From Gemmatimonadota bacterium (GTDB taxonomy: Bacteria > Gemmatimonadota > Gemmatimonadetes > Gemmatimonadales > Gemmatimonadaceae), in contig JAHFCU010000004.1 in NCBI GenBank assembly GCA_023249305.1, forward strand, positions 10,399 to 74,398: a stretch of DNA of 64,000 bases, in the 5' to 3' direction. Both the position numbers and the translations under genes were made by a program. Of this stretch, positions 11,027-57,207 are shown one piece after another. Position 1 is the first letter of the stretch. Each line of letters opens with the position of its first letter. The notes beneath the pieces were generated by a model that made no database searches, had not been told where the DNA came from, and worked only from the letters and a program-made list of their open reading frames with translations.

Positions 11027-11971
11027 ATGACCACGACGTCCACGGCGTCCGAAGATTCCTCCCGGCTCGCGCAGTTCGAGGCGCGAATCGCCGCGGACGA
11101 GTCCATCGAACCGAAGGACTGGATGCCCGAGCGCTACCGGAAGCAGTTGATCCGGATGATGGCGCAGCACGCGCATTCCGAGGTGGTGGGAATGCTCCCC
11201 GAGGGGAACTGGATCACGCGCGCGCCGACGCTGCGGCGCAAGATGGTCCTGCTGGCCAAGGTGCAGGATGAGGCCGGCCATGGTCTCTACATCTACTGCG
11301 GCACCGAGACGCTCGGCGTGGACCGCCACGACCTCGTGCAGGAACTGCTCGACGGCAAGGCGAAGTACTCGAGCATCTTCAACTACCCGACGCTGACCTG
11401 GGCGGACATCGGCGCCATCGGCTGGTTGGTGGACGGCGCGGCGATCGTGAACCAGACCATGCTCGCCAAGGCCTCGTTCGGACCGTACGCCCGGGCGATG
11501 GTGCGCATCTGCAAGGAAGAGAACTTTCACAAGCGCCAAGGTTACGAGATCATGGCGACCCTCGCGCGCGGCACGGGCGCCCAGCGCGCCATGGCGCAGG
11601 ATGCGCTCAACCGGTGGTGGTGGCCGTCGCTGATGATGTTCGGCCCGCACGACAAGGACTCGACGAACAGCGACGAGCTGATGCGCTGGGGCATCAAGCG
11701 CAAGAGCAACGACGAGCTGCGCCAGCGCTTCGTCAACATGACCATCGTGCAGGCGCAGGCGATTGACCTCACGGTGCCCGATGCCGACCTGAAGTACAAC
11801 GAGATGACCGGAGACTGGGAGACGGGGCCGATTGACTGGGACGAGTTCTGGCGCGTGGTCAAGGGCAACGGACCGTGCAACAAGGAACGGCTCGACGCAC
11901 GGCGCAAGGCAGACGCTGATGGCGCCTGGGTGCGCGCGGCAGCGTCGGCGTACGTGGAGAAACACGCATGA
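11027..11971 (+). CDS. paaA: 1,2-phenylacetyl-CoA epoxidase, catalytic subunit A
   Basis: ORF 10949..11971, trimmed to ATG 11027. It has di-iron ferritin-like motifs ([11 protein letters not shown] ... DEAGHG). There is an ATGA overlap with paaB. Confidence 0.9.
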
Positions 11972-12267: not shown

Positions 12268-13025
12268 TGCCGCCGCACCCCGCTCTCGTCCCCGCCCTGC
12301 TGCGGATCGGCGATGATCGCCTCGTGCTCGGCCACCGGACCTCCGAATGGTGCGGCCACGCCCCGATCCTCGAGGAGGACGTCGCGCTGGTCAACATCGC
12401 ACTCGATCTGATTGGACAGGCCAACCTCGTGCTGCAGCACGCGGGCGCGCTCGAAGGCACGGGGCGCGACCAGGATGCGCTTGCGTTCTTCCGCGAGGCG
12501 GTCGAGTTCCGAAACGCCCTTTTGTGCGAGTTGCCCAAGGGCGACTTTGGCGTGACGATCGTGCGACACTTCTTCCACAGCCTGTTCAGCGTGCTGCAGT
12601 GGGAGGCGCTGTCGCGATCAGCCGACACCACGCTCGCCGGCATCGCGGCGAAGGCGCTCAAGGAAAGCCGCTATCACGCGCGCCATTCGGGCGGGTGGGT
12701 GATCCGACTCGGCGATGGCACTGACGAAAGCCATCGACGTGCGCAGGAAGCAGTGGACGCGCTCTGGTCGTACACGGGCGAGCTCTTCATGCAGCCCGCG
12801 AATGAGGCGGACCTGGTCTCTGCCGGACTCACCCCGGACGTATCGACGCTCGAGCCCGCGTGGCGCGCGCAGGTGGACGACGTGCTGCGCCGCGCGACGC
12901 TCCGCGTCCCCGAGGTCGTGTGGATGCAGCGCGGCGGGCGCGACGGCCGGCACACCGAGCACCTCGGCCACATGCTGGCGGAAATGCAGATCGTCGCGCG
13001 GTCGCATCCGGGGGCGCAGTGGTGA
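12267..13025 (+). CDS. paaC: 1,2-phenylacetyl-CoA epoxidase subunit C
   Basis: 252 aa. The sequence LLRIGDDRLVLGHRTSEWCGHAPILEEDVALVNIALDLIGQA is typical of PaaC. There is a TGATG overlap with paaB. Confidence 0.85.
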   Translation: MPPHPALVPALLRIGDDRLVLGHRTSEWCGHAPILEEDVALVNIALDLIGQANLVLQHAGALEGTGRDQDALAFFREAVEFRNALLCELPKGDFGVTIVRHFFHSLFSVLQWEALSRSADTTLAGIAAKALKESRYHARHSGGWVIRLGDGTDESHRRAQEAVDALWSYTGELFMQPANEADLVSAGLTPDVSTLEPAWRAQVDDVLRRATLRVPEVVWMQRGGRDGRHTEHLGHMLAEMQIVARSHPGAQW

Positions 13026-13516
13026 GCACGCGCGCGCAGGTCCTCGCCTGGCTCGACGACGTCAAGGATCCCGAGGTTCCGGTGCTCTCGGTGGTGGAAC
13101 TCGGCGTCGTGCGTGACGCGCAAGTGGATGCCGACGGCGGCGTGACTGTCACTGTGACGCCGACGTACACTGGATGTCCGGCGATGCGCGTGATCGAGGA
13201 CTCTATCCGTGAGGCGCTGCTGCTGCGCGGCGCACCGCGCGTCACGGTGGCGACCGTGTTCACGCCGGCGTGGACCACCGATTGGATTCCCGAATCAGCG
13301 CGTGCGAAACTCGAGGCCTACGGCATCGCGCCGCCCGGCCCGGCGAGCGCGGTGGACGAACTCGTGCCGTTGCGGCGCGCGGACATCGCGGTCCGTTGCC
13401 CGTGGTGCAAGTCCATGCACACGACACTGCGCAGCGAGTTCGGCAGCACGTCGTGCAAGGCGCTGTGGGTCTGTGACGAGTGCCGTCAGCCGTTTGAGGC
13501 GTTCAAGGCGATATAG
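13022..13516 (+). CDS. paaD: phenylacetate degradation protein PaaD (SUF/FeS-assembly-like domain plus C-terminal Cys cluster)
   Basis: ORF 12860..13516, trimmed to GTG 13022, which overlaps the paaC stop (GTGA). The sequence contains DPEVPVLSVVELGVVRD ... TPTYTGCPA ... CPWC....C..C. Confidence 0.8.
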   Translation: MSTRAQVLAWLDDVKDPEVPVLSVVELGVVRDAQVDADGGVTVTVTPTYTGCPAMRVIEDSIREALLLRGAPRVTVATVFTPAWTTDWIPESARAKLEAYGIAPPGPASAVDELVPLRRADIAVRCPWCKSMHTTLRSEFGSTSCKALWVCDECRQPFEAFKAI

Positions 13517-13522
13517 CTTGCG

Positions 13523-13575
13523 CAGAGAACAACAGAGAACAACAGAGAACAACAGACTACAACAGACCAAGACAG
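13523..13575 (+). repeat. decamer tandem array A: (CAGAGAACAA)x3-CAGACTACAA-CAGACCAAGA-CAG
   Basis: Read directly from the sequence. The period is 10 bp, and the array starts 7 nt after the paaD stop. Confidence 0.95.
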
Positions 13576-13673
13576 CTTCGCCTTGGAGGGGCCGAGGGAG
13601 CGGACGCCTTCTTTCGTTTCCTCCCGAAACGATTTGATGCGTGTGCAGCGTGACTCGGAGCGTAGGGTGCCGC

Positions 13674-14081
13674 ATGCACCAGTACGAGAAACTCCAGCTC
13701 TGGAAGCGGGGGATTGCGCTGGCCGCTCACCTGCTTCGTCGGGCGCGAGCCGCTGGCGGGGCTTGGGGGGAACGGGCACTCTGGGAACAGATCACCAGGG
13801 CCGCCACGAGCATTCCTACAAATGTCGCTGAGGGCGCGCAGCGTGGATCGAACCGGGAGTTTGCGCGCTTCCTCGGGATTGCCACGGGCTCAGCCGCTGA
13901 ACTGCACTCGCTGATCTACCTCGCCGCCGAGGGCGGATCGCTCGGCCGGTCGGAGGCTCAGACGCTCGCTGGTGAAGCACAACAGCTTCGACGGATGGCC
14001 GCCGCCCTGCGCGCCCGCGCTGAAGGTTCTCGCAGAGAGAGCACTGAGCGCAGGGCAGAGCGCGTGCGCCGCCGGATCTGA
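13674..14081 (+). CDS. four-helix-bundle protein (23S rRNA intervening-sequence protein family, TIGR02436/PF05635 type)
   Basis: ORF 13641..14081, trimmed to ATG 13674. The sequence is YEKLQLWKRGIALA...QITRAATSIPTNVAEGAQRGSNREFARFLGIATGSAAELHSLIYLA, which is the family signature (IP.NIAEG, F..FL.IA.GS..E). Confidence 0.85.
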   Translation: MHQYEKLQLWKRGIALAAHLLRRARAAGGAWGERALWEQITRAATSIPTNVAEGAQRGSNREFARFLGIATGSAAELHSLIYLAAEGGSLGRSEAQTLAGEAQQLRRMAAALRARAEGSRRESTERRAERVRRRI

Positions 14082-14102
14082 CTCGAACGCGTTCGCCCTG
14101 CC

Positions 14103-14168
14103 CCTCTGTTGTAGTCTGTTGTAGTCTGTTGTAGTCTGTTGTACTCTGTTGTGCTCTGTTTCACTCTG
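14103..14168 (-). repeat. decamer tandem array B; reverse complement reads CAGAGTGAAA-CAGAGCACAA-CAGAGTACAA-(CAGACTACAA)x3-CAGAGG
   Basis: Read directly from the sequence. The array is inverted relative to array A and ends 2 nt before the stop codon of the convergent E1 gene. Confidence 0.95.
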
Positions 14169-14170
14169 CG

Positions 14171-16267
14171 CTATAGCGCCACTAGCGCCTCGATCCGCTC
14201 GCCAATCCGCTCCACCGTCGGCACGATCGCGTTGAGCAAGTCGGTGTGATACGCGACGGGAATGTCGGCTGGCGCGAGCCGCTGCACCGGCGCGTCGAGG
14301 TGCCAGAACGCGTCGCTTGCCACCGTCGCCGCGATTTCCGCGCCGAATCCCGCGGTCAGGTTGTCCTCGTGCACCACGAGGCAGCGCCCCGTCTTCTCGA
14401 CCGACGCGAGCACCGCCGCCTTGTCCCACGGCGCCACCGTGCGCAGGTCAATGAGCTCCACCGCGCCGCCGAATCGCTCCGCGGCTTCGGTGCACCGAAG
14501 CACCATCGCGCCCCACGTGACGACCGTGAGGTCCGTTCCCTCACGCACCACGCGCGCACGGCCGAAAGGCAGCACGTACTCGTCACCCGGGTATGGCGCG
14601 CTGCCGTCGGACGTCATCAGCAGCGAGCGGTGCTCGAAGAAGATCGCGGGATCGAGCCCGCGCATCGCGGCGCGCAACAGCCCGACGGCGTCGGACGCGT
14701 TGGAGGGAACTGCCACGTGCCACCCGTACGCATGCGCGAAGCGCACCTCGTCAGAGAGCGAATGCCACGGATCGCCGACATCCTTGCCGAATCCGCCCGG
14801 CATCCGCACGATGACCGGCGCGGCGAACCGATTGCGCGTGCGCCAGCGCATCGTGCCGAGGTTGTTCAGTTGCTCGGCGGCTGGATCGGCGTACTTGCGG
14901 AACTGGATCTCGGTGACGGGGACGAGCCCGGCGATCGCCATCCCGGACGCACGCCCGATGATGCCCTCCTCCGACAGCGAGGTGTCGAACACGCGCGCCG
15001 CGCCGTGCTTCTTCTGCAGGCCTTCCGTGACGAGGTGCACGCCGCCCTTGCGGCCGACGTCTTCGCCGAAAACGAGCACGCGCGGATTCGCGGCGAGTTC
15101 CACGTCCAGCGTGCGGCGCACGGCCTCCTGGAAGCGCAGCACCGTGCCGCCCAGCGACGGCTTGTCCGTGCCGCGCAGTCGCGTACGCTCCGCCGCCGGC
15201 ATGCCGCCCATGACCGCGGCTTCCTCGTCGCCGTAGACGAAGCGCCCCACCTCCGCTGCACTGGGCGCCGGCCGCGCGCGCGCCGCATCCACCGCCGCGC
15301 GCACCTCGTCGTCCACTGAGCGCATCATGTCGTCCCACGCGCGCGCCGTCATGAGCGCCGGCACGAGATACGCCTTGAGCTTCGGCAACGGGTCGCGCGT
15401 GAAGTCGGCCGCGATTTCCTCGTCGGTGCGATATCCCTTCTGGTTGTCCGGTCCGGAATGGCTGTTGAGTCGCGGCACGGTGAGATGCACCAGCGCGGCG
15501 CCGCATCCTGAACGGACGTGCGCGACGCATTCGGCCAACAGTCGCGCGGTCTCATCCGGGTTGGTGCCATCGCCGTCGCGAATGAACAGCTCGCCGAACG
15601 ACTGCAAGTTGCGCGCGATGTTCGCTCCTGGAGTCTGCATCGCGCCGCGCACCGAGATGCCGAGGTCGTTGTCCTCGATGTAGAACAGCATCGGCAGCCT
15701 GAGCGTCGTCGCCATTGTCAGCGCTGACCAGAAGCCGTTAGTCGCCACCGACCCGTCGCCGCCAAGCACGACGCCGATGGCGCCCTCGTACGACTCGTCC
15801 TTGAGCACGTCGCGATGATACGTGACGGCCTGCGCCCAGCCGGCAACCGGCGTGTACTGCGAGCCCACATCACCGGACATTGGCAGCACGGTGCAGCCGC
15901 TGCCGGGACGCGGCAGGTTGCACACGACGCCGATGTCGCGGCCGTCGCTGAAGCCGCCGGCGCGCCCCAGCGGGCTTCCGTGCGCGTCTTCGAGGCTCAG
16001 GCCCAGCGACAGGAGCAGCGGTCGCGAGCGGTAGTACGCCCCCGCGGCGTCGTGCGCTCCGGTCAGCAGTGACCCGAGGATCACCTGCGCCACTTCGTGG
16101 CCCTTCGCCGAGAACTGGTACTGGACCACGTGCTCCTTGGGCGTCGTCGCCTTCGAGCGATTTAGCAGCTCCTCGAGGTCGTCGAGGGTGCGCGACGCGA
16201 CGGCCGTGCGGGCAATCCGCACCCAGTCAAACTGCGGATCGGGAGAGGCGGCGTTCTTGGCGGCCAT
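14171..16267 (-). CDS. fused 2-oxoacid dehydrogenase E1 component (alpha/beta fusion, thiamine-diphosphate dependent)
   Basis: ORF 14171..16318, trimmed to ATG 16267. The N-terminal half has the TPP motif GGDGSVATNGFW...LPMLFYIEDNDLGIS. The C-terminal half is E1-beta-like (VLVFGEDVG..GGVH.VT.GL...FDT.LSEEGIIG). No E2 or E3 gene is nearby. Confidence 0.85.
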   Translation of the reverse strand: MAAKNAASPDPQFDWVRIARTAVASRTLDDLEELLNRSKATTPKEHVVQYQFSAKGHEVAQVILGSLLTGAHDAAGAYYRSRPLLLSLGLSLEDAHGSPLGRAGGFSDGRDIGVVCNLPRPGSGCTVLPMSGDVGSQYTPVAGWAQAVTYHRDVLKDESYEGAIGVVLGGDGSVATNGFWSALTMATTLRLPMLFYIEDNDLGISVRGAMQTPGANIARNLQSFGELFIRDGDGTNPDETARLLAECVAHVRSGCGAALVHLTVPRLNSHSGPDNQKGYRTDEEIAADFTRDPLPKLKAYLVPALMTARAWDDMMRSVDDEVRAAVDAARARPAPSAAEVGRFVYGDEEAAVMGGMPAAERTRLRGTDKPSLGGTVLRFQEAVRRTLDVELAANPRVLVFGEDVGRKGGVHLVTEGLQKKHGAARVFDTSLSEEGIIGRASGMAIAGLVPVTEIQFRKYADPAAEQLNNLGTMRWRTRNRFAAPVIVRMPGGFGKDVGDPWHSLSDEVRFAHAYGWHVAVPSNASDAVGLLRAAMRGLDPAIFFEHRSLLMTSDGSAPYPGDEYVLPFGRARVVREGTDLTVVTWGAMVLRCTEAAERFGGAVELIDLRTVAPWDKAAVLASVEKTGRCLVVHEDNLTAGFGAEIAATVASDAFWHLDAPVQRLAPADIPVAYHTDLLNAIVPTVERIGERIEALVAL

Positions 16268-16360
16268 GGCCAGACAAATATCGGAGCCGTGACGGGTGGC
16301 CGGAAGCGGCACCGTCACGGCATTATTGTACGGAGTTGCTGCCAGGCACAGTCGCGCATC

Positions 16361-16516
16361 GCCGTCCGTCGTCTGTCGTCGTCTGTCGTCGTCTGTCGTC
16401 GTCTGTCGTCGTCTGTCGTCGTCTGTCGTCTGCTGTCGTCTGCTGTCGTCTGCTGTCGTCTGCTATCGGCCGCTCGCCGTCCGCCGTCTGCCGTCCACCG
16501 TCTACCGTCCGCCGTC
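16361..16516 (-). repeat. decamer tandem array C: plus strand (GTCTGTCGTC)x6-(TGCTGTCGTC)x3 plus a degenerate period-10 tail; reverse complement CAGACGACGA
   Basis: Read directly from the sequence. There are about 15 units in the same orientation as array B. The array ends 1 nt before the paaG ATG. Confidence 0.95.
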
Positions 16517-24730: not shown

Positions 24731-25756
24731 ATGCGATTCCGAAACCTCACCGTGGCACTCTCGTTCGCCGCGGCCCTGCCGCTGGCAGCGCAGACGTTTA
24801 CGCCGGTGGAAATCGGCGCGTATGGCCAGTACACAAAGTTCGCAGACGTGACGAAGCTCGACCCGGCGTTCGGGCTCGGAGGGCTCGTCAGCGTTCCGCT
24901 GTTTCAACGCTTCGCGTTTCAGTACGAAGGCGATTTCGGCTCAACGAACAGCAGCCGGGTCGGCGACCTCACCGCGTTGAACCACCGCTTCGACATCGTT
25001 TATCACGTGCCGATCGGCGATCGCCGGACCTTCTTCGTGGGCGGTGGTTGGACGGGATCGCAGTATCGCACCGATACGACGAAGAACCAGTACGACTCGG
25101 GCCTGAACCTCCAGGCCGGTTTTCGCTTCTGCCTAGGCGACAACTGGGCGCTGCGCACCAGCGCGGTGATGGACTTCAAGGATCCGTCCGACCAGATCCC
25201 GACGGGCGATCGGACGCAGACGTTGAGCCTGCGCGCGGGCATCAGCCGGTTCTTCGGCGGCAAGGACGCGAACTCGCCGTGCGTCGTGATCGTGCCGCCG
25301 CCCCCGCCACCGCCCGCTCCGGCACCTCCGCCCCCGCCTCCGCCGCCGCCGGCTCCCAAGCCTGCTGCCGCTCCGCCGCCACCACCGCCCCCGCCGCCGG
25401 CTCCGGCTCCGAAGCCACGCGAGATCTTCCGGCTCACCGGCATTTATTTCGACTTCGACAAGAGCGACCTGAAGAAGGCCGGCAAGGACACGCTCGAGGC
25501 CGCGGTGAAGTACTTGAATGCGAATCCGGGAGCTAAGGTGGAGATCCAGGGGCACACGGACAGCCTTGGTACCGATGCGTACAACCGATCGCTGTCGGAC
25601 CGGCGCGCCACCGTGGTGATGAAATACCTGCGGTCGCGCGGCATTGAAGCGTCGCGCATGAGCACCAAGGGCCTGGGTGAGAACGAACCAACGGCTGACA
25701 ACGGCACCAAGGAAGGACGCGCGCTGAACCGGCGCGCGGTGATCATCGAGTTGTAG
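24731..25756 (+). CDS. OmpA-family outer-membrane protein (beta-barrel, poly-proline linker, OmpA/MotB C-terminal domain)
   Basis: ORF 24578..25756, trimmed to ATG 24731 (AGGAGAG 8 nt upstream). The signal peptide is MRFRNLTVALSFAAALPLAAQ. The C-terminus reads FDFDKSDL...GHTDS.G...YN..LS.RRA..V..YL. Confidence 0.85.
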   Translation: MRFRNLTVALSFAAALPLAAQTFTPVEIGAYGQYTKFADVTKLDPAFGLGGLVSVPLFQRFAFQYEGDFGSTNSSRVGDLTALNHRFDIVYHVPIGDRRTFFVGGGWTGSQYRTDTTKNQYDSGLNLQAGFRFCLGDNWALRTSAVMDFKDPSDQIPTGDRTQTLSLRAGISRFFGGKDANSPCVVIVPPPPPPPAPAPPPPPPPPPAPKPAAAPPPPPPPPPAPAPKPREIFRLTGIYFDFDKSDLKKAGKDTLEAAVKYLNANPGAKVEIQGHTDSLGTDAYNRSLSDRRATVVMKYLRSRGIEASRMSTKGLGENEPTADNGTKEGRALNRRAVIIEL

Positions 25757-30825: not shown

Positions 30826-31623
30826 ATGACCATGACCAAACTCAGAACTCTCGCGCTGCTGCTCGGAGCGGCCCTGGTCGCTTCGTGCGGTGACCAGGCG
30901 AATCAGGTGATCGCCGGGCCGGAGCCGAATGCAGTCACGCGCATCCGTTTCTTCAACTTTTCCGTCGGCGGTCCTGGCGTGCACTTCTACGCCAACGACA
31001 CGAAGGTGGCGGGGGCGGCTGAAGTGGGCTTCACGCAGGACCGCTTCCTTGGCACCGCCACGGGCGGCACCGAGTCCATTACGGGCACGGCTTTTGGCGG
31101 TGTGACGTCGGGCGGCTACTACAACTCGATCGCGCCGGGAACGTACACGTTCAATGCGCGCATCGCGGCGACCGTCGACAACGGCCTGAAGATCGCAAAC
31201 ATCGTGAAGGCCATTGAATCGGGCAAGAAGTACTCGGTCTTCCTAAGCGGCGCGTATGACGCGACGGCAAAGACGACCGATGGCTTTGTCGTCGAGGACC
31301 CGTACAGCGAGTCGTACGACTGGAACAACGTCCAGGTGCGCTTCGTGAACACGAGCTACAACTCGTCGCCGATGACCCTGTACGCCAAGAACCAGACGAC
31401 CACCGCGGAAACGGCGGTCGGTGCCGATGTGGCGTACAAGGGCGCCGGCGCGTACGTGACGCTGGCTGCGGGTACGTACGATTTCCGAGCCTATGTCAGC
31501 GCCTCGGCCACGAACCCGTTCACGCGCACGGCCGTCTCGCTCACCGCGGGCAGGATCTACACGATCTCGACTCGCGGCAGTGCGACGACGGGGCAGTTCC
31601 TCGATAATACCGCGAACAGGTAG
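30826..31623 (+). CDS. DUF4397-like lipoprotein
   Basis: 265 aa. The lipobox is LLGAALVASC. It has repeated VRF(F/V)N.S ... Y ... motifs typical of DUF4397. Its start abuts the susD stop. Confidence 0.65.
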   Translation: MTMTKLRTLALLLGAALVASCGDQANQVIAGPEPNAVTRIRFFNFSVGGPGVHFYANDTKVAGAAEVGFTQDRFLGTATGGTESITGTAFGGVTSGGYYNSIAPGTYTFNARIAATVDNGLKIANIVKAIESGKKYSVFLSGAYDATAKTTDGFVVEDPYSESYDWNNVQVRFVNTSYNSSPMTLYAKNQTTTAETAVGADVAYKGAGAYVTLAAGTYDFRAYVSASATNPFTRTAVSLTAGRIYTISTRGSATTGQFLDNTANR

Positions 31624-31624
31624 G

Positions 31625-31790
31625 GTGATGCAGGACTTGGATTCAGGATTGCGATAGTGGGTTTGGATTCAGGATCGCGATAGACGATGGTTGGTGCGAT
31701 GGGGGGCTCCGCGAGGGGTCCCCCATCGTGCATCGAAATCAGTTATCCTAATCCTGAGTCGCAATCCTGAATCCAAATCCTCAATCGTCC
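31625..31790. repeat. composite low-GC intergenic repeat element (two direct and one inverted copy of TTGGATTCAGGATTGCGA around a GC hairpin)
   Basis: Copies lie at 31637-31654 (+), 31663-31680 (+, 1 mismatch) and 31759-31776 (-, identical). The central hairpin spans 31697-31728, with a 14-bp stem including G-U pairs and a GCGA loop. Confidence 0.8.
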
Positions 31791-31791
31791 G

Positions 31792-33033
31792 TTGAGCCGC
31801 ATCCTCCTCGTCGACGCCGACGCCTTCTTCGTCGCCGTGGCCCGCGCGGTGGATCCCGCGGGCGCCGGCGTGGCACGGCTGCTGATCGTCGGCGGCCGTC
31901 CGGGATCGCGCGGCGTCGTCTGCTCGGCGAGCTACGAGACGCGCGCCTTCGGCGTGCGCAGCGGCATGCCCATCTCGCAGGCGATGCGCCTCTGCCCGCA
32001 GGCGATGTGCGTGCCGGTGCCGCGCACGGCGTGCAGCGACACGAGCCGCGCCATCCGGCACGTCCTCGACCAGTTCACGCCCGTGGTCGAGGCGGCGAGC
32101 ATCGACGAGTGGTACCTCGACCTTTCGGGCACCGAGGCCCTCTACGGCCACGAGCCCGTCGCCGTAACGGCGCGGCGCATCCGCGACACCGTCGTCGCGA
32201 AGACGGGTATGCGCGTCTCGATTGGTGTCGGCCCCAACAAGCTCGTAGCCAAGCTCGCCGCGGAGCGGGCCAAGCCCAAACCGGGGACGCAGGCCACGGG
32301 CGTGCACGTCGTCGGGCAGGCGGATGTTGCCGCATTCATGGCCACGCTCGAACTCGGCGACATCCCAAGCATCGGCCCCAAACTGCAGGAGAAACTGAAG
32401 AAGGTCGGGTTGGTCGGCGTGCGTGACGTGCTCGAGGCGGATCCGGAGAACCTCGCGCGTTGGCTCGGGCGCGAGACGGCCTACCGTGTGCTCAGCAAGT
32501 CGCGCGGCGAGAGCCAAGCGGCGGTGGAACCGCACGCACCGGTCAAGCAGGTGAGCCGAGAGGAGACGTTTGATCGCGATGTCGCTGACGCGGCCGCGCT
32601 GCGTCACGAACTTCTCCTGCTCTCGCACCGCGTGGCCGCTGACCTGCGCCACGACGGTCTGGAAGCGCACACGGTGACCGTCAAGGTGCGCGACCAACGT
32701 TTCGTGACGCGCACGATCAGCCGCACGTTCGACGAGCCCATCTCGTCCGACGCCGCGGTTGCCGCCGCAGCCCGCGACCTGCTGCGCGAGCTGCGCACCG
32801 GCTGGACGATCCCGGTGCGGCTCGCGGGGGTCGCCCTCTCGCGGTTCACTCCGGCACGGGACGCCGAGCAGCTCACGATGTTCGATGCGGCCAAGTCCGT
32901 GGAGACGCCGCGCGACCGGGCGCTATCGCGCGCGGTGGATCGCGTCCGCGAGAAATTCGGCGACGCGTCTATCCGTGCCGGCGCGCCGCGGGCCACTCCG
33001 TTGGGCGAGAAGGGCGCGCGGAAGCCGCGCTGA
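31792..33033 (+). CDS. dinB: DNA polymerase IV (Y-family translesion polymerase)
   Basis: 413 aa with a TTG start. The sequence reads ILLVDADAFFVAVARAVDP ... CSASYETRAFGVRSGMP ... SIDEWYLDLSG ... RVSIGVGPNKLVAKLAA. Confidence 0.9.
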   Translation: MSRILLVDADAFFVAVARAVDPAGAGVARLLIVGGRPGSRGVVCSASYETRAFGVRSGMPISQAMRLCPQAMCVPVPRTACSDTSRAIRHVLDQFTPVVEAASIDEWYLDLSGTEALYGHEPVAVTARRIRDTVVAKTGMRVSIGVGPNKLVAKLAAERAKPKPGTQATGVHVVGQADVAAFMATLELGDIPSIGPKLQEKLKKVGLVGVRDVLEADPENLARWLGRETAYRVLSKSRGESQAAVEPHAPVKQVSREETFDRDVADAAALRHELLLLSHRVAADLRHDGLEAHTVTVKVRDQRFVTRTISRTFDEPISSDAAVAAAARDLLRELRTGWTIPVRLAGVALSRFTPARDAEQLTMFDAAKSVETPRDRALSRAVDRVREKFGDASIRAGAPRATPLGEKGARKPR

Positions 33034-33643: not shown

Positions 33644-35194
33644 ATGTATTCGTTGCTTCCGCTGCTGCTCGCCCTCGTCGCCGCCCGCGCCGATTCCGTT
33701 GACATCCTGATCAAGGGTGGCGCGGTGTACGACGGCTCGGGCAAACCCGCGGTGGTGACCGACGTCGGCCTGCGCGGCGACCGCATCGTCTTCATCGGCG
33801 ATGCGGCGAAGGCCAAGCTGAAGGCCGGCCAGGTCATCGATGCAAAGGGACTCATCGTCGCGCCGGGGTTCATCAACCCTCATTCGCACTCGATGGAAGG
33901 CGTCGAGCGCTTCAACGATGAGCGCCGGAAGAACATCCCCGAACTGATGCAGGGTATCACCACCGTCACCAACGGCCCGGACGGTCGTGGCCCCTACGAC
34001 GTGGCGCGCATCCAGGGCGAAACTGAGAAGAAGGGACTCGGCACCAACACGTTTGCGCTGGTGGGCTTTGGCACGGTGAAGAGCAAGGTGACGGGCAGCT
34101 CCTCGGCGCCGGCGACGATCGCGCAGGTGGACAGCATGCGCAAGCTCATTGACAAGGGGATGCGCGAGGGGGCGTTCGGCGTCGGCGCGGGGCTGTTCTA
34201 CGCACCGCAAAGCTACGCCTCCACCGAGGAGGCCATCGCCGTCATCTCCGCGGCCAAGCCCTACGGCGGCATTTACGATTCGCACCAGCGTGACGAGAGT
34301 TCGTATACCATCGGGCTTATGAACTCGACGCGCGAGGCGATCCGCATTGGGCGCGAGTCGGGGCTCGTCACCAACATCGGCCATGTGAAGGCACTCGGCG
34401 TGGACGTGTGGGGCTATGCCGACAGCGTCCTGCGGTTGATGCGCCAGGAGCGAGCCACGGGGCACATGGTCGTGGCCGACCAGTATCCATGGACGGCGAG
34501 CGGAACGGGGCTGAGCGCGGCCCTGCTGCCGCGGTGGGTGCAGGCGGGCGGGCGTGACTCGATGCTCGCGCGCATCGCCGATCCGGCGTTGAAGACGAAA
34601 ATGCTCGCCGAGATGCGCGACAACCTGCGCCGCCGCGGCGGCGACAGCACGCTGCGGCTGATCAACGGCGGCGAGAACGCCAAGCCGTACATCGGCAGGA
34701 CGCTCAAGCAGGTGGCGGCCGAGAAGGGGACGCCGGCCGTGGAGACCGCCCTGGAATTGATCCGCACGGGAGTCGACATGGGGGTCGCCTCGTTCAACAT
34801 GACCGAGGCGGACATCGAGACGTTCATGAAGGATCCATACGTGATGACGAGTTCGGACGGGTCGGGTGGCCACCCGCGGCTGTACGGCACGTATCCGCGC
34901 AAGATCCGGCGCTACGTGCTCGACAAGCCGGTGATCACGATGCAGCGCATGGTGCAGTCGTCGTCGGCGCAGGTCGCCGACGTGTACGGCCTCACGGAAC
35001 GTGGGTGGCTGAAGACTGGGTACTTTGCCGACGTCATCATCTTCGACCCAAAGACGATTCGCGAACTAGCCACGTACGAGGAGCCGGAGAAGCTGAGCGT
35101 CGGCATGCGTTGGGTGTTCGTGAATGGCAAGGCAGCGGTGGCGGACGGGCAGCCGACGGGGGTGATGGCTGGGAAGGCCTTGCGAAAGAGATAA
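33644..35194 (+). CDS. N-acyl-D-amino-acid deacylase (D-aminoacylase) family amidohydrolase, secreted
   Basis: ORF 33587..35194, trimmed to ATG 33644. It has a signal peptide, then ILIKGGAVYDGSG ... GLIVAPGFINPHSH (HxH metal site) ... SDG. Confidence 0.8.
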   Translation: MYSLLPLLLALVAARADSVDILIKGGAVYDGSGKPAVVTDVGLRGDRIVFIGDAAKAKLKAGQVIDAKGLIVAPGFINPHSHSMEGVERFNDERRKNIPELMQGITTVTNGPDGRGPYDVARIQGETEKKGLGTNTFALVGFGTVKSKVTGSSSAPATIAQVDSMRKLIDKGMREGAFGVGAGLFYAPQSYASTEEAIAVISAAKPYGGIYDSHQRDESSYTIGLMNSTREAIRIGRESGLVTNIGHVKALGVDVWGYADSVLRLMRQERATGHMVVADQYPWTASGTGLSAALLPRWVQAGGRDSMLARIADPALKTKMLAEMRDNLRRRGGDSTLRLINGGENAKPYIGRTLKQVAAEKGTPAVETALELIRTGVDMGVASFNMTEADIETFMKDPYVMTSSDGSGGHPRLYGTYPRKIRRYVLDKPVITMQRMVQSSSAQVADVYGLTERGWLKTGYFADVIIFDPKTIRELATYEEPEKLSVGMRWVFVNGKAAVADGQPTGVMAGKALRKR

Positions 35195-35253
35195 AGGATA
35201 TGGATTCAGGATTACGATAGAGGATTGGGATTGAGGATTTCGATTTTCGATTG
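35195..35253. repeat. copy of the GGATTCAGGAT repeat family followed by degenerate GGATT/CGATT units
   Basis: 35200-35217 ATGGATTCAGGATTACGA has 2 mismatches to the 31.6-kb copies. It is followed by AGGATTGGGATTGAGGATTTCGATTTTCGATTG. Confidence 0.7.
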
Positions 35254-53988: not shown

Positions 53989-56900
53989 GTGCGTCGTGCC
54001 CCGCGTCGTGCCTTAATTGCAGCAATCGCCGCTCTAGCGGCCGTCCTCCCCCACGTTGCTGGTGCCCAAGCGCGCGCGCCGTTCGACGCACTGCATTTCC
54101 GCGAGATCGGCCCCGCCGCCACCGGCGGTCGCATCCACGACGTGCAGATTGACCCGCGCAACCCGGCGGTGCTGTACGTCGCGTCCGCGTCGGGTGGCAT
54201 CTGGAAGTCCACCAACAAGGGACTCACCTGGAAGGACATCTTCGTGGGTCAGCCCGACAACACGTTCGGTGCGCTCGCCATCTTCGACGGGGACACTCGC
54301 ATCATCTGGGCCGGCACCGGCGAGCAGAACAATCGGCAGAGCTCGTCGTGGGGCGGCGGCGTCTATCGCACCACCGATGGTGGCGACTCGTGGAGCTTCC
54401 TCGGCTTGCACGACACGCGTTCGATAGGGCGCGTTGTCGCCCATCCGACCGATCCTGCCGTCGCTTGGGTGGCGGCCGTCGGAAACCTGTGGAAGCCGAC
54501 CGCCGAACGCGGCGTGTTCAAGACCACCGACGCGGGCCGCACGTGGACCAAGGTGCTCTACGTGGATTCGCTGACCGGCGCGACGGACCTCGTCATGGAT
54601 CCGCACAATTCGCAGGTGCTGTACGCCGCCACGTATCAGCGATTGCGCAAGACGTTCGGCTTCAACGGCGGCGGCCCGGGCAGCGCCATCTACAAGACCA
54701 CCGACGGCGGTGCGACGTGGACGAAGCTCGAGAACGGCGTCCCTGCCGGTGACCGGGGACGCATCGGCCTTGCCATCGCGCAGTCGCGCCCGGACGTGCT
54801 CATCGCGACCATCGAGCACGCGACAGCAGGAGGTACATACCGCACCGAGGACGCGGGCGCGACGTGGAAGCGCATGAGCGCCGCGAATCCGCGGCCGATG
54901 TACTACAGCAAGCCCACCATCGACCCGACCAACTCGCTGCGGGTCTGGCTTCCCGGCACGTACATCGTGAAGAGCGAGAACGGCGGCGCGACGTTCGAGG
55001 AGGCGCCGACATCGCCCACCTACGACGTCGGGCTCAAGACCGACCATCACGTGCTGCTCGTGGATCCTGCGAATCCGTCGCACATCTACGTCGGAGGCGA
55101 CGGCGGCCTGCACGAGAGCTTCGACATGGGGAAGACGTACATCCGCCTGAACAACATCCCCATCGGGCAGATCTACAAGATCGCCGTGGACGATCGCGAT
55201 CCGTATTGGATCTACGCTGGCTTTCAGGACAACCACTCCTTCATGGGCCCGAGCGCCACGCGGCACTGGCTAGGCATCCTCAACCAGGACTGGTTCGAAA
55301 TCGGTTTCAGCGACGGTACCGGCAAGGCGGTGGACAAGGCCGACTGGCGCAGGGTGTACTCGTCGTCGAGCGGCGGCAACTTGTCGCTCGCGGATCCGGT
55401 CACTGGCGATGTCATGGGCATCACGCCGCGCCCACCGCAAGGCGAGCCGCCTTACCGCTTCGACTGGGACGCACCGGTCATCGCATCCAGGCACACCGGC
55501 GGCACAGTGTATCTCGGCGGAAACCGGCTGTTCATCTCCAAGGACTATGGTTCGTCGTGGACGCGCACCGACGATCTCACGCGCAGTATCAACCGCGATA
55601 CGCTCGTGATGATGGGCGTGAAGAACCGCGACATCCGTCTTTCGCGCAATGATGGCGACGCGATCAGCGAGATCACGGCCATCGCCGAGTCGCCGCTCGA
55701 CGCGAAGATCCTCTGGGTCGGCACCGACGACGGCAACGTGCAGTTGAGCACCGACGGCGGCGCAACATGGAGCAATCTCAGCGCGAACATTCGCGGCGCG
55801 CCGGATGGCGCCTATGTTGGCGAGATCGTCGCGTCTGCCGCTTCCAGGGCCACCGCGTACGTGGCCATTGACGCGCACCGAGACGGTGACTTTGCGCCGT
55901 ATCTCGTCCGCACCACCGACTTCGGCCAGTCGTGGTCGGCCGTTACCAGCGGCCTGCCTCGCGACGACGCTTCCGTTCGCGCGCTCACCGAGTATCCGGG
56001 CAAGGCCAACGTGCTGTTCGCGGGCACGGAACGCGCGCTGTTCGTCACGCACGACAGCGGCGCGCACTGGAACAAGCTGAGCGCGAACCTCCCTACTACG
56101 CGCTACGATGACATTCTCGTGCACCCGCGCACGAAGGACCTCGTCCTCGGCACGCACGGACGCAGCCTGTGGTTGCTCGACGACGCCTCGCCGATCGCCG
56201 AGTGGACGCCGGAACTCGCCGCCAAGCGCGCGCACCTGTTCGCCGTGCCGCGCGCGACGCTGACGCTGTACTGGGAAGACGTGTCGAACATGGCGCACTA
56301 CTTCTACGCGGCGGAGAATCCCGCCGAAGGCGCTGCGTTCACGTACCATCTTGCACAGCCCGCGAAGCAGGTGCGCTTGCTCGTCACGACGAAGGACGGC
56401 AAGGCGCTGCGCGAGATCGCGGGCCCCACGGCCGCCGGCGTGATTCACCGCGTGCAGTGGGATCTTCGGTATCCGCTGCCGACGGGCGCGGCGCGCTTGG
56501 GCGGCGGCGGTGGCGGCGGTGAGGAAGGCGGCGGTGGCGGCGGCCCCGGCGCGCAACGCGCGGGCGTCGTCCAACTCCCGATTCCCGCGCACGACATCGC
56601 GGCGCGGGGCCCGATGGTGGCGCCCGGTGCGTTCAAGGTTTCGCTCGAGGTGGACGGTGTGATCGTCGAGTCGCGCTCCTTCGACGTGCGCGCTGATCCC
56701 GCCTCGACGCTGAAGCTCGCCGATCACAAGGCGCGCGAAGCGTTCGCCGTCGAAGTGATGCAGAAGCTCGCGCACATGGACTCACTCGCGGCGCGAATCG
56801 GCGCCAAGCGAGCCGCGTCCACTGGCGCGGAGGCCGAGCGGCTGCAAGCGCTCGAGCAACGGCTGGTTGGCGGGCGCGGTGTCTTCGGCGGCGGCGCGGG

Positions 56901-57207
56901 TGGCGGTGCGGGTGGCGGCGCGGGTGGCGGCGCGGGTGGTGGCGCGGGTGGTGGCGCGGGTGGCGCCGGCGGCGCTGGTGGCGGACCCGGTGGACGCGGA
57001 CCGCAGGCGGTGCGCCAGCGCCTCGGCACGCTGCTCTCGGTCTATGCGAGCTCGGGGGCACGCACGGGCACGATGTCGCCGCCGACTGGTGCGATGCGCA
57101 CGACGCTCATCGAGGCGAAGAACGAACTGTCCACGATCGAGCGGGAATTCGCGGACGCGGTCAAGTCGACGAAGCCGACGCCATCGCCAGCCCCGAAGTC
57201 GCCCTAA
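53989..57207 (+). CDS. sortilin/VPS10-like BNR (Asp-box) repeat beta-propeller protein with Gly-rich inserts
   Basis: ORF 53842..57207, trimmed to GTG 53989, just past the preceding gene. It has a signal peptide. There are many Asp-box motifs (S.DGG.TW: TTDGGDSW, TTDAGRTW, TTDGGATW, TEDAGATW, STDGGATW, THDSGAHW). Confidence 0.8.
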   Translation: MRRAPRRALIAAIAALAAVLPHVAGAQARAPFDALHFREIGPAATGGRIHDVQIDPRNPAVLYVASASGGIWKSTNKGLTWKDIFVGQPDNTFGALAIFDGDTRIIWAGTGEQNNRQSSSWGGGVYRTTDGGDSWSFLGLHDTRSIGRVVAHPTDPAVAWVAAVGNLWKPTAERGVFKTTDAGRTWTKVLYVDSLTGATDLVMDPHNSQVLYAATYQRLRKTFGFNGGGPGSAIYKTTDGGATWTKLENGVPAGDRGRIGLAIAQSRPDVLIATIEHATAGGTYRTEDAGATWKRMSAANPRPMYYSKPTIDPTNSLRVWLPGTYIVKSENGGATFEEAPTSPTYDVGLKTDHHVLLVDPANPSHIYVGGDGGLHESFDMGKTYIRLNNIPIGQIYKIAVDDRDPYWIYAGFQDNHSFMGPSATRHWLGILNQDWFEIGFSDGTGKAVDKADWRRVYSSSSGGNLSLADPVTGDVMGITPRPPQGEPPYRFDWDAPVIASRHTGGTVYLGGNRLFISKDYGSSWTRTDDLTRSINRDTLVMMGVKNRDIRLSRNDGDAISEITAIAESPLDAKILWVGTDDGNVQLSTDGGATWSNLSANIRGAPDGAYVGEIVASAASRATAYVAIDAHRDGDFAPYLVRTTDFGQSWSAVTSGLPRDDASVRALTEYPGKANVLFAGTERALFVTHDSGAHWNKLSANLPTTRYDDILVHPRTKDLVLGTHGRSLWLLDDASPIAEWTPELAAKRAHLFAVPRATLTLYWEDVSNMAHYFYAAENPAEGAAFTYHLAQPAKQVRLLVTTKDGKALREIAGPTAAGVIHRVQWDLRYPLPTGAARLGGGGGGGEEGGGGGGPGAQRAGVVQLPIPAHDIAARGPMVAPGAFKVSLEVDGVIVESRSFDVRADPASTLKLADHKAREAFAVEVMQKLAHMDSLAARIGAKRAASTGAEAERLQALEQRLVGGRGVFGGGAGGGAGGGAGGGAGGGAGGGAGGAGGAGGGPGGRGPQAVRQRLGTLLSVYASSGARTGTMSPPTGAMRTTLIEAKNELSTIEREFADAVKSTKPTPSPAPKSP

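What the first reader, a model, noticed from the sequence alone, without database searches (positions are those of the whole stretch)
13517..14170. Four-helix-bundle (23S-rRNA-IVS / Avd-type) gene enclosed by inverted arrays of 10-bp tandem repeats, sitting between two convergent stop codons
A 0.65-kb unit lies between the paaD stop (13514-13516) and the stop of the convergent E1 gene (14171-14173).

Its parts are:
- Array A (13523-13575): (CAGAGAACAA)x3-CAGACTACAA-CAGACCAAGA.
- A 135-codon four-helix-bundle ORF (13674-14081).
- Array B (14103-14168), whose reverse complement reads CAGAGTGAAA-CAGAGCACAA-CAGAGTACAA-(CAGACTACAA)x3.

The two arrays are inverted relative to each other. They share the outer end GCGCAGAG and the same outer-to-inner gradient of unit variants, with CAGAG.. 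outside and CAGACTACAA inside. They therefore behave as one composite terminal inverted repeat of about 55-65 bp, not two independent microsatellites.

In a transcript they could pair into a long imperfect stem with the ORF in the loop. This resembles the ORF-bearing intervening sequences of 23S rRNA that gave this protein family its name, where the stem is an RNase III substrate. To my knowledge the same fold family also contains the Avd accessory protein of diversity-generating retroelements. The window contains no reverse transcriptase, template/variable repeat pair or transposase.

A stand-alone IVS-like cassette with decamer-array arms inside a catabolic operon is not something I can place in a described class.
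Basis: partly seen in the sequence, partly recalled or inferred. Interest (0 to 1): 0.7.

Follow-up and report, generated by a model that had tools for sequence, protein, structure and literature searches.

The report
Repeat-armed four-helix-bundle gene cassette
A small four-helix-bundle gene wedged between two convergent genes is bracketed by mirror-image arrays of 10-base repeats. The same layout surrounds relatives of this gene across bacterial phyla, so the ORF-bearing "intervening sequences" known from ribosomal RNA look like one case of a wider, exchangeable gene cassette.

Summary
Array A (13523-13575), a 135-codon PF05635/TIGR02436 ORF (13674-14081) and array B (14104-14168) lie exactly between the paaD and E1 stop codons. 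The arms form the longest inverted repeat in the 64-kb window and pair in predicted RNA folds (z about -8).

The source is a Gemmatimonadaceae genome.
- **Other sites.** Homologous cassettes with CAGAG-core decamer arms occur at this site in five other genomes, and also between ftsA|ftsZ and mlaD|TonB-receptor genes.
- **Empty sites.** Close relatives have an empty junction or a different gene there.
- **Inversion.** In one genome the cassette is inverted in situ.
- **Replacement.** In two near-identical backgrounds (E1 99% aa) the cassette differs as a unit (4HB 69% aa).
- **Family-wide.** 36 of 69 distant PF05635 genes from metagenomes carry flanking inverted repeats, mostly 7-mer arrays, against 0 of 155 control positions. 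Finished cyanobacterial plasmids show the same.

Best reading: a stand-alone IVS-type cassette. Its arms probably form an RNase III-type duplex in read-through RNA and act as recombinogenic ends in DNA. The mechanism is inferred, not shown. I found no description of this class in the searched literature.

The parts
13520..13575 (+). 5' arm (array A). It reads GCG + (CAGAGAACAA)x3, CAGACTACAA, CAGACCAAGA, CAG. It is purine-rich with 42% G+C in a 67-68% G+C genome, and starts 3 nt after the paaD stop.
   Evidence: inverted repeat I1, 56 nt, 86%. Searches give composition and units.
13576..13673 (+). Unique spacer between the 5' arm and the start codon. It holds a block (GATTTGATG, about 13631-13639) that corresponds to the motif GAATGGTGA. 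That motif is conserved 34-42 nt upstream of the ATG in cassettes at all three genomic sites. A TTG-type hexamer lies about 20 nt further upstream. It is possibly the cassette's own promoter or 5' leader (inferred).
   Evidence: Ungapped comparison of 12 cassettes. The simple scan found no sigma-70 consensus match. There is a weak terminator-like hairpin at 13594-13611.
13674..14081 (+). [quoted passage not shown]
   Evidence: HMM scores above the curated cutoffs. (PDB 2gsc 5.8e-25, 2rld 9.5e-11). (AlphaFold pLDDT 93.9; Foldseek 2gsc TM 0.89, 2rld 0.88, Avd 4dwl/8ube 0.80-0.84). (intact ORF in all relatives examined; dN/dS about 0.1-0.2, with dS saturated).
14104..14171 (+). 3' arm (array B), pyrimidine-rich. 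Its reverse complement reads CAGAGTGAAA, CAGAGCACAA, CAGAGTACAA, (CAGACTACAA)x3. It ends in CTCTGCGC, abutting the E1 stop codon.
16367..16460 (+). Related third array (array C): (CGTCGTCTGT)x6 and (CGTCTGCTGT)x3-4, followed by 7-mers (CCGTCYR) up to the paaG start at about 16518. It is in direct orientation with array B and inverted relative to array A. It lies in the divergent E1/paaG intergenic region. Whether it belongs to the cassette is uncertain.
   Evidence: (family D1 joins B and C at 68-76% identity). (7-mer arrays of GGCAGAC type at the same place in relatives with and without the cassette).

Best explanation
This is a stand-alone 'intervening-sequence-type' cassette. It consists of a PF05635 four-helix-bundle gene with about 100 nt of its own upstream leader, enclosed by two inverted arrays of a 10-nt unit (conserved core CAGAG plus five variable bases).

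**Shown here**
- The architecture is a trait of the protein family, not of this locus. It recurs at three sites in Gemmatimonadaceae and, mostly with 7-8-nt units, around distant homologues in many phyla.
- The two arms evolve in concert.
- The cassette is a discrete unit that can be absent, inverted in place, or replaced by a divergent cassette in an otherwise near-identical genomic background.

**Inferred mechanism**
- **At the RNA level:** any transcript reading through from paaD or from E1 contains both arms. The arms pair into a duplex of about 55 bp with the gene in the loop. RNase III-type cleavage of that duplex would sever the cassette from the flanking mRNAs and leave each with a stem at its 3' end. 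The 23S rRNA IVSs that carry the same gene family are cut this way. This would make the insertion harmless between convergent genes, inside operons (ftsA|ftsZ, cas6|cas4) and inside rRNA.
- **Expression of the gene:** it is probably expressed from its own signal in the spacer.
- **At the DNA level:** the same arms are recombinogenic ends. They account for the inversion, for the keeping of the two arms alike, and for cassette exchange.

The biochemical role of the protein is unknown. By fold it is related to the nucleic-acid-binding, pentameric DGR accessory protein Avd.
For: **Anatomy and pairing**
- Searches give the anatomy.
- Searches put the A:B stem in the MFE and centroid folds (z -8.1 and -6.8).

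**Same site in relatives**
- L001/L002, L005, L007 and L166 carry the cassette between paaD and E1, with units CAGAGTACGA, CAGAGAACGG, CAGAGTGCGA and CAGAGTGGAA.

**Other sites, same protein clade (55-65% identity to the paa-site proteins) and same CAGAG-type decamer arms (CAGAA units in L168, 11-mers in L087)**
- ftsA|ftsZ, antisense: L167 and L168.
- mlaD|TonB-dependent receptor: L170/171, L086, L087 and L092.

**Concerted arms**
- The majority units of the two arms differ by 0.9 positions within a locus and by 2.8 between loci (p = 1.5e-4).

**Presence/absence**
- The junction is empty, 3-28 nt, in L009, L013 and L016.
- An unrelated gene sits there in L006, L008 and L012.

**In-situ inversion**
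- L004 has the same outer junction sequences as L005, but the spacer and ORF are flipped.

**Replacement as a unit**
- L001 and L005 have E1 at 99% aa (dS 0.064) but 4HB at 69% aa (dS 2.4).
- DNA identity is 98-100% up to the paaD stop codon. It falls to 40-75% across arms and ORF, and recovers about 20 nt inside E1.

**Family-wide**
- 36 of 69 distant homologues have flanking inverted repeats of at least 36 bits. The controls gave 0 of 155 control positions, 0 in direct orientation and 1 of 69 with permuted flanks.
- 34 of 53 arms are tandem arrays, mostly of period 7 or 14.
- Finished cyanobacterial plasmids show the same arrangement.

**Published precedent**
- The stem of the Coxiella 23S IVS is formed by its terminal inverted repeats, encloses an S23p ORF and is cut by RNase III.
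- Tandem GACAGAT heptamers of variable copy number lie just upstream of the ORF, and the 5' cleavage site is at the start of the first repeat (PMC4990558).
Against: - **No expression data.** Transcription through the arms, duplex formation in vivo and RNase III cleavage are all untested.
- **Weak support for RNA-level selection.** Mismatches between arms are largely transversions (57), with only a weak excess of sense-strand G:U (43) over A:C (25). Selection on RNA pairing is therefore not demonstrated, and DNA-level gene conversion alone could keep the arms alike.
- **Pairing does not explain the core.** The conserved CAGAG core across three sites points to a sequence-specific ligand.
- **Arms may lie outside the gene's own transcript.** In the mla-site cassettes a GC-rich hairpin sits between the ORF and the 3' arm, and a conserved motif lies upstream of the ORF.
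- **No canonical promoter.** The simple sigma-70 scan found none in the spacer.
- **Arrays occur without the gene.** Arrays lacking any 4HB gene are found at the same junction and elsewhere in this lineage.
- **The exchange may be ordinary recombination.** The L001/L005 exchange could be homologous recombination in the flanking genes, not a cassette-specific mechanism.
Confidence: 0.5

Rival explanations
1. The arms are primarily DNA ends of a mobile or site-specific recombination element. They would be subterminal repeat arrays bound by the 4HB pentamer or by a recombinase encoded elsewhere, and RNA pairing would be incidental.
For: - One protein clade sits at three unrelated sites with the same CAGAG core.
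- The breakpoints of the L001/L005 replacement lie at or within about 20 nt of the arm ends.
- L004 is inverted in situ.
- A second cassette family with a shared, non-tandem 50-nt inverted repeat occurs in at least four different flanking contexts.
- The core is conserved beyond what pairing alone requires.
Against: - There is no transposase or recombinase in or next to the cassette. Gene calls with Pfam in L001, L004, L005 and L166-L171 show none.
- No target-site duplication was seen.
- Proteins cluster loosely by site and differ by 30-40% between sites, so moves are rare and old.
- The last seven E1 codons were swapped together with the cassette, which fits homologous recombination in the flanks.
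Confidence: 0.25
2. The arrays are multivalent binding sites for the ring-shaped 4HB pentamer on single-stranded or duplex RNA. This would resemble TRAP binding GAG repeats, or Avd gripping DGR RNA. It would give autoregulation, or a ribonucleoprotein acting in trans on the many ORF-less arrays.
For: - The 5-nt core is conserved and repeated five or more times per arm.
- The unit differs with the protein clade even within the same bacterial family. L169 has a 33%-identical protein and different, GGTRCCT-type arms.
- The closest solved homologues are pentamers (2gsc and 2rld, five chains each), and the fold matches RNA-bound Avd in 8ube.
- CAGAG/CAGAC-core arrays without a gene occur nearby.
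Against: - This is pure inference, with no binding data.
- Unit length varies from 7 to 11 nt across the family.
- Repeat numbers range from 3 to about 20 and are unequal between arms.
- Co-variation of protein and unit cannot be separated from shared ancestry with these data.
Confidence: 0.15
3. The arrays are generic features of intergenic regions and bidirectional terminators in this lineage: an A-rich arm, a hairpin and a U-rich arm. The 4HB gene would be a passenger that landed in the loop of such a structure, with no functional coupling between gene and arms.
For: - ORF-less versions occur at the very same paaD|E1 junction. L041 has (GTGAGGT)n, a GC hairpin and (CCACCTT)n, and L053, L065 and L069/70 are similar.
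- An ORF-less inverted heptamer hairpin lies at window 31620-31795 (dG -97 kcal/mol, z -8.1).
- Heptamer arrays upstream of paaG and paaB occur whether or not the cassette is present.
- The 5' arms are purine-rich in 42 of 53 loci and low in G+C.
Against: - The association holds across phyla and repeat types: 36 of 69 against 0 of 155.
- It also holds in cyanobacterial plasmids, inside cas operons.
- The arms travel with the gene to three different sites and keep the same core.
- The arms are replaced together with the gene.
Confidence: 0.1

Closest known systems
ORF-bearing intervening sequences (IVS) of 23S rRNA (Leptospira, Coxiella burnetii and others) that encode S23p/PF05635 proteins
   Same: - The same protein family is encoded.
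- The ORF sits in the loop of a long stem formed by terminal inverted repeats.
- In Coxiella, tandem short repeats (GACAGAT heptamers, copy number variable between strains) lie just upstream of the ORF, and the 5' RNase III cleavage site is at the start of the first repeat (PMC4990558).
- The element is a self-contained insertion whose presence is polymorphic.
   Different: - It is not in rRNA. It lies between the stop codons of two convergent protein-coding genes, and Rfam finds no rRNA in the window.
- The arms are 55-65 nt arrays of a 10-nt unit, compared with a 28-bp stem in Coxiella.
- RNase III processing is not shown here.
- Relatives show inversion and whole-cassette replacement, which the one IVS paper I read (PMC4990558) does not report.
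Avd, the accessory variability determinant of diversity-generating retroelements
   Same: It has the four-helix-bundle fold. Foldseek gives 4dwl and 8ube TM 0.80-0.84 with probability 1.0. The solved homologues are pentamers.
   Different: - There is no sequence-level match to Avd.
- No reverse transcriptase appears in the +/-5 kb gene calls of orthologous loci.
- There is no template/variable repeat pair.
- Inverted tandem arrays are not, to my knowledge, part of DGR architecture.
Short tandemly repeated repetitive (STRR) heptamer sequences of heterocystous cyanobacteria, and REP/BIME-type intergenic palindromic repeats
   Same: These are short (7-nt) tandem units in intergenic DNA, often able to form hairpins. 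The arrays around cyanobacterial 4HB genes are of this kind: GGTGACA, AAAGCTA and GGGGAAA types. ORF-less inverted arrays also occur in this window.
   Different: As far as I know, and in the literature I could search, STRR and REP elements are described as non-coding repeats with no linked gene. Here the arrays bracket a specific protein family. The link to STRR itself rests on my own recollection of that literature and was not tested.
Transposons and MITEs with subterminal repeat arrays in inverted orientation
   Same: - It has terminal inverted repeats built from reiterated short units.
- It is a discrete unit with presence/absence polymorphism.
- It occurs at several genomic sites.
   Different: - No transposase is present.
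- No target-site duplication was seen.
- Copies at different sites are 30-40% diverged in protein sequence.
- The only cargo is a 120-135-aa helical protein.

Membership tests
PF05635 / TIGR02436 four-helix-bundle (S23p, '23S rRNA IVS protein') family | Profile match above the curated threshold | tested here: met
   PF05635 scores 82.4 bits against a cutoff of 33.8. TIGR02436 scores 83 bits against a cutoff of 24. A profile of the clade hits PDB 2gsc at 5.8e-25 and 2rld at 9.5e-11.
PF05635 / TIGR02436 four-helix-bundle (S23p, '23S rRNA IVS protein') family | Four-helix-bundle fold | tested here: met
   The AlphaFold model has pLDDT 93.9 and four long helices. Foldseek gives 2gsc TM 0.89 and 2rld TM 0.88.
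PF05635 / TIGR02436 four-helix-bundle (S23p, '23S rRNA IVS protein') family | Homopentameric ring assembly | not tested
   Only a monomer was modelled. The two solved homologues each have five chains.
23S rRNA intervening sequence (IVS) | Inserted in a helix of the 23S rRNA gene | tested here: not met
   Rfam finds no rRNA or any other family in the window. The flanks are the paaD and E1 coding sequences.
23S rRNA intervening sequence (IVS) | Terminal inverted repeats that form a stem enclosing the ORF | tested here: met
   The arms are 56 nt and 86% complementary. The stem is present in the MFE and centroid folds of both strands.
23S rRNA intervening sequence (IVS) | Excision from the transcript by RNase III | not testable with these tools
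   This needs RNA end-mapping or an in vitro cleavage assay. It has been shown for Coxiella (PMC4990558).
Diversity-generating retroelement (DGR) | Adjacent reverse transcriptase | tested here: not met
   The neighbours are paaA-D, E1, paaG and beta-oxidation genes. The Pfam-annotated gene calls within +/-5 kb in L001, L004 and L005 include no RVT family. The rest of the window was not screened.
Diversity-generating retroelement (DGR) | Template repeat / variable repeat pair | tested here: not met
   No long direct repeat pair occurs anywhere in the window apart from the tandem arrays themselves.
Transposon / MITE | Terminal inverted repeats | tested here: met
Transposon / MITE | Transposase (autonomous element), or many near-identical copies (MITE) | tested here: not met
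   The only ORF is the 4HB gene. There is one copy in the window. Copies at other sites are only 55-65% identical in protein.
Transposon / MITE | Target-site duplication | tested here: inconclusive
   TATAG occurs on both sides in the window. No consistent duplication is seen in L001, L004, L005, L167 or L170. The empty sites are too diverged to align base by base.
Invertible DNA switch (recombinase-driven) | Inverted repeats flanking a segment found in both orientations | tested here: met
   L004 compared with L005, L001 and the window: the outer junctions are the same and the inner segment is flipped. This is a difference between species, not within one population.
Invertible DNA switch (recombinase-driven) | Dedicated invertase nearby; both orientations within one population | tested here: not met
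   No recombinase appears in the gene calls around the cassette. Population heterogeneity could not be examined.

The most novel reading that the evidence does not exclude
PF05635 four-helix-bundle genes and short tandem-repeat arrays together form a previously unrecognised, phylum-spanning class of selfish or semi-domesticated cassette. The pentameric protein would specifically recognise its own repeat unit on RNA or DNA. The inverted arrays would let the cassette sit in any transcribed hairpin-like site (rRNA helices, terminators, operon junctions) and be cut out of host transcripts by RNase III. The abundant ORF-less arrays, including STRR-type heptamers of cyanobacteria and the array hairpins of Gemmatimonadaceae, would be its footprints or trans-targets.
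Probability: 0.25. Interest if true: 0.9.

Novelty: new variant of a known kind. Interest (0 to 1): 0.72.

Why it matters
The PF05635/TIGR02436 family is very large and still has no assigned function outside DGRs. ORF-bearing rRNA intervening sequences have been an unexplained curiosity since the early 1990s. Short tandem intergenic repeats such as cyanobacterial STRRs are also unexplained.

If the architecture found here is general, these three puzzles become one testable system. It would be a small nucleic-acid-binding protein gene that carries its own duplex-forming, recombinogenic repeat arms. It tolerates insertion into essential operons (ftsA|ftsZ), cas operons and rRNA, and it is exchanged between lineages much faster than its surroundings.

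It would also explain two side issues. One is why this domain scores as 'CRISPR-associated' in large screens. The other is why repeat finders may mis-call its arms.

Tried and rejected
- **Chance or independent microsatellites: rejected.** The arms are the longest inverted repeat in the window. They co-vary between genomes. The bracketing recurs.
- **DGR remnant: rejected.** There is no RT in the neighbourhood and no TR/VR pair.
- **Defence-system or phage protein: no support.** PADLOC-DB and PHROGs gave no hit. A scan of viral contigs found no relative.
- **Known RNA family: none.** Rfam gave no match in the whole window.
- **Canonical sigma-70 promoter in the spacer: none found** by the simple scan.
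- **G:U versus A:C mismatch asymmetry, as a test for RNA-level selection: inconclusive.** The counts were 43, 25 and 57 transversions, and the events are not independent.
- **Simple vertical inheritance of the cassette: rejected.** L001 and L005 have E1 dS 0.064 against 4HB dS 2.4, and the 4HB identities are incongruent with E1.
- **Independent opposite-orientation insertion in L004: judged less likely than in-situ inversion.** Both outer junction sequences are the same as in L005, and the proteins are close, at 75%.
- **An apparent array-length polymorphism between L145 and L146: not real.** It turned out to be a deletion inside the upstream gene.
- **Exact-sequence look-up of the window's own protein:** nothing found.
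- **Literature searches:** none of the searches found a description of repeat arrays around non-rRNA 4HB genes. The library lacks most subscription-journal papers.
Full report
**1. The observation**

The region reads exactly as described.
- paaD (12860-13516; PF23451/PF01883, TIGR02159) ends at 13514-13516.
- A fused E1 alpha/beta dehydrogenase gene on the minus strand ends at 14171-14173.
- Between them lie array A (13523-13575; TRF period 10, 4.4 copies), a 135-codon ORF (13674-14081) and array B (14104-14168; period 10, 6.5 copies).
- The ORF is a clear member of PF05635/TIGR02436, with scores well above the curated cutoffs.
- The arrays form a 56-nt, 86%-complementary inverted repeat that includes the outer GCGCAGAG ends. 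It is the longest inverted repeat within 4 kb in the whole 64-kb window.
- As RNA, either strand folds with the A:B stem in both the MFE and the centroid structure. The z-scores are -8.1 and -6.8, and none of the 20 shuffles for either strand folded as well.
- Rfam finds nothing in the window.

**2. Source and orthologous loci**

The nearest homologues of the protein are 60-70% identical and come from Gemmatimonadaceae metagenome-assembled genomes. Several of these sit in the same synteny: AsnC-type regulator, paaABCD, 4HB, E1 reversed, then paaG and beta-oxidation genes.

Each is again bracketed by inverted decamer arrays that abut, or lie within a few bases of, the two stop codons, but with a different unit:

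| Locus | Unit |
|---|---|
| L001/L002 | CAGAGTACGA |
| L005, L004 | CAGAGAACGG |
| L007 | CAGAGTGCGA |
| L166 | CAGAGTGGAA |

Across ten loci the first five bases (CAGAG) are conserved and the last five vary. The majority units of the two arms of one locus differ at 0.9 positions, against 2.8 for arms of different loci (permutation p = 1.5e-4). The arms therefore evolve in concert.

**3. Presence, absence, inversion and replacement**

A scan of species-representative genomes with the E1 protein returned 80 Gemmatimonadaceae loci.

- **Presence and absence.** Among the closest relatives (E1 77-91% identical) the paaD|E1 junction takes three forms:
  - occupied by the cassette (L007, plus the loci above);
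  - empty, with only 3-28 nt between the stops and no arrays (L009, L013, L016);
  - occupied by an unrelated small gene without arrays (L006, L012, L008).
- **Inversion.** In L004 the spacer and ORF are flipped relative to paaD and E1. Both outer junction sequences (…ATCTGA-GAACGGCAGAG… and …CTCTGCGCA-CTA…) are the same as in L005. This indicates in-situ inversion across the arms.
- **Replacement.** L001 and L005 are nearly the same genome here: E1 is 99% identical in protein, with dS 0.064. Their 4HB proteins are only 69% identical (dS 2.4), and their arrays differ.
  - DNA identity is 98-100% up to the paaD stop codon.
  - It falls to 40-75% across arm, spacer, ORF and arm.
  - It recovers about 20 nt inside the 3' end of E1.

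  The cassette has therefore been replaced as a unit. The 4HB identities are incongruent with those of E1.
- **Selection.** The ORF is intact in every locus examined, and dN/dS is about 0.1-0.2, although dS is saturated.

**4. Other sites**

The same protein clade (55-65% identity to the paa-site proteins) occurs with inverted CAGAG-type decamer arms (CAGAA units in L168, 11-mers in L087) in two other places.
- Between ftsA and ftsZ, antisense to both (L167; L168, which carries the same WGS accession prefix, JACPFW01, as L010).
- Between the convergent mlaD and a TonB-dependent receptor gene (L170/171, L086, L087 with 11-mers, L092).

Further points from these loci:
- The proteins group only loosely by site (84% between the two ftsA|ftsZ copies, 69% at the mla site, 59-75% at the paa site, against 55-67% between sites), so the site-to-site moves appear to be old.
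- The mla-site cassettes have a GC-rich hairpin between the ORF and the 3' arm.
- All cassettes share two blocks at fixed distance upstream of the ATG: a TTG-type hexamer, and GAATGGTGA at about -42 to -34. This suggests the cassette has its own expression signal, although no sigma-70 consensus is found.
- A 33%-identical homologue in another Gemmatimonadaceae genome (L169) has different, GGTRCCT-type inverted arms. The unit thus follows the cassette lineage and not the host lineage. This rests on a single example.

**5. Family-wide test**

A metagenome scan with a profile of the clade returned mostly distant homologues, 30-45% identical, from diverse samples.

I compared 350 nt upstream with 350 nt downstream of each gene:

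| Comparison | Inverted matches of at least 36 bits |
|---|---|
| Real flanks of 69 testable loci | 36 (29 at 44 bits or more) |
| 155 control positions in the same loci | 0 |
| Same flanks, direct orientation | 0 |
| Permuted flanks | 1 of 69 |

- Of 53 arms, 34 are tandem arrays. The periods are 7 (18 loci), 14 (5), 8 (2), 10 (8, the Gemmatimonadaceae clade) and 11 (1).
- The 5' arm is purine-rich in 42 of 53 loci and usually lower in G+C than the locus.
- Examples: (AGTGATG)x16 on both sides in L115, GAGTCGC in L139, GTGACAG in L156 and GGGGAARA in L164.
- A further group shares a non-tandem inverted repeat of about 50 nt and occurs in at least four unrelated flanking contexts.
- Three of four finished cyanobacterial plasmids examined confirm the pattern in isolates; the fourth, Calothrix sp. 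PCC 7716, has only short upstream repeats and no significant flanking inverted repeat:
  - Nostoc sp. ATCC 53789 pNsp_c has GGGGAAA-type arms.
  - Anabaena sp. 90 pANA02 has about 20 GGTGACA/GGGAACA units upstream and inverted TGTCACC units downstream. There the gene lies between cas6 and cas4.
  - Pseudanabaena galeata has the same cas6|cas4 position with AAAGCTA arrays.

**6. Relation to what is known**

- **Structure.** Sequence and fold place the protein with the solved pentameric S23p proteins 2gsc and 2rld. At fold level only, it also resembles DGR Avd.
[quoted passage not shown] Just upstream of its S23p ORF it has tandem GACAGAT heptamers whose number varies between strains (PMC4990558). 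The cassette here has the same anatomy outside rRNA.
- **Literature search.** I found no paper that describes repeat-array arms around non-rRNA members of this family. [quoted passage not shown] The cas6|cas4 insertions may account for this; that link is my inference.

**7. Mechanism**

Shown here:
- The cassette is a discrete unit that can be exchanged and inverted.
- Its arms are kept alike.
- The arrangement is a family trait.

Inferred:
- In read-through transcripts the arms form a long duplex that is an RNase III-type substrate, as in the rRNA IVSs.
- Cleavage would uncouple the cassette from the flanking mRNAs. This would explain why insertion is tolerated between convergent genes, within ftsA|ftsZ, within cas operons and within rRNA.
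- In DNA the arms act as substrates for recombination.

Caveats:
- The mismatch spectrum between arms does not demonstrate RNA-level selection.
- The conserved core suggests a sequence-specific ligand, possibly the 4HB pentamer itself.
- ORF-less arrays are frequent in this lineage. Examples:
  - heptamer arrays before paaG and paaB, and an 11-mer CAGAGAGACAA array that extends the PaaA C-terminus in relatives;
  - ORF-less inverted arrays at the paaD|E1 junction of more distant relatives;
  - an array hairpin at window 31620-31795 with z -8.1.

  The ORF-less and ORF-bearing forms may relate to each other as the ORF-less and ORF-bearing rRNA IVSs do. Alternatively, the gene may simply have landed in a pre-existing terminator-like array hairpin.

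**8. Verdict**

- The element fails the defining location test for a 23S IVS and the RT and TR/VR tests for a DGR, and it has no transposase.
- It is best filed as a new variant of the IVS kind: a stand-alone, repeat-armed four-helix-bundle cassette.
- The biochemical mechanism remains to be shown.

Noticed in passing
window 16367-16516: There is a third decamer array, (CGTCGTCTGT)x6 and (CGTCTGCTGT)x3-4, followed by 7-mers (CCGTCYR) that run up to the paaG start codon. It is direct with array B and inverted relative to array A, so the E1 gene is itself bracketed by related arrays. Relatives with and without the cassette all have GGCAGAC-type heptamer arrays at this position.
   Followed up: partly
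window 31620-31795; also 35190-35251 and 1300-1357: An ORF-less inverted array of GGATTCA/GGATTGC-type heptamers surrounds a GC-rich hairpin between two co-directional genes (RNA fold -97 kcal/mol, z -8.1). Related units recur at 35190-35251 and in a palindrome at 1300-1357. This looks like a dispersed, REP-like family of array hairpins in this genome.
   Followed up: partly
L001 3060-3257, L005 3098-3288 (paaA/paaB junction); window 11940-11971 for comparison: In relatives an 11-mer array (CAGAGAGACAA x4.4) starts where the window's paaA stops. It is translated as a 17-residue extension of PaaA. It is followed by a hairpin and 13-15 copies of a CCGCCAT-type heptamer up to the paaB start. In the window paaA and paaB overlap, with no array. 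The 11-mer array is also present in genomes that lack the 4HB cassette (L006, L009, L012).
   Followed up: partly
L001 vs L005, 4300-4353 and 4603-4700 (L001 coordinates): Apart from the cassette, two short patches inside or next to paaD are also strongly diverged (40-86% identity) between these otherwise 98-100% identical loci. This suggests mosaic recombination around the site.
   Followed up: no
L174 (Pseudanabaena galeata pPg_01) and L176 (Anabaena sp. 90 pANA02): In two cyanobacterial genera, four-helix-bundle genes with heptamer arrays are inserted between cas6 and cas4, in what is annotated as a type I-D CRISPR-Cas operon in Anabaena sp. 90. This may explain why the '23S rRNA IVP' domain appears among CRISPR-adaptation-associated domains in a published large-scale screen (PMC10910872; figure legend only).
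   Followed up: partly
window about 16290-16330 (minus strand) and relatives: A sequence GTACAATAATGCC is conserved upstream of E1 in the window and eight relatives, L011 with one substitution (L013 and L016 lack it). It looks like a canonical -10 element (TACAAT). This suggests ordinary sigma-70-type promoters in this lineage, unlike the conserved GAATGGTGA block upstream of the 4HB ORF.
   Followed up: no
L006 2330-2870, L012 2020-2560, L008 8280-8790: In the closest relatives that lack the cassette, the same paaD|E1 junction holds a gene of about 170 codons with an N-terminal signal/lipoprotein-like sequence, plus a second small gene in L008. The junction is therefore a general hotspot for small insertions.
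   Followed up: no
window 25294-25416 and 56869-56994: Tandem Repeats Finder reported G+C-rich arrays here with periods of 12 to 54 nt, multiples of three. They are probably coding low-complexity (Pro/Ala/Gly-rich) repeats and not related to the cassette arms.
   Followed up: no
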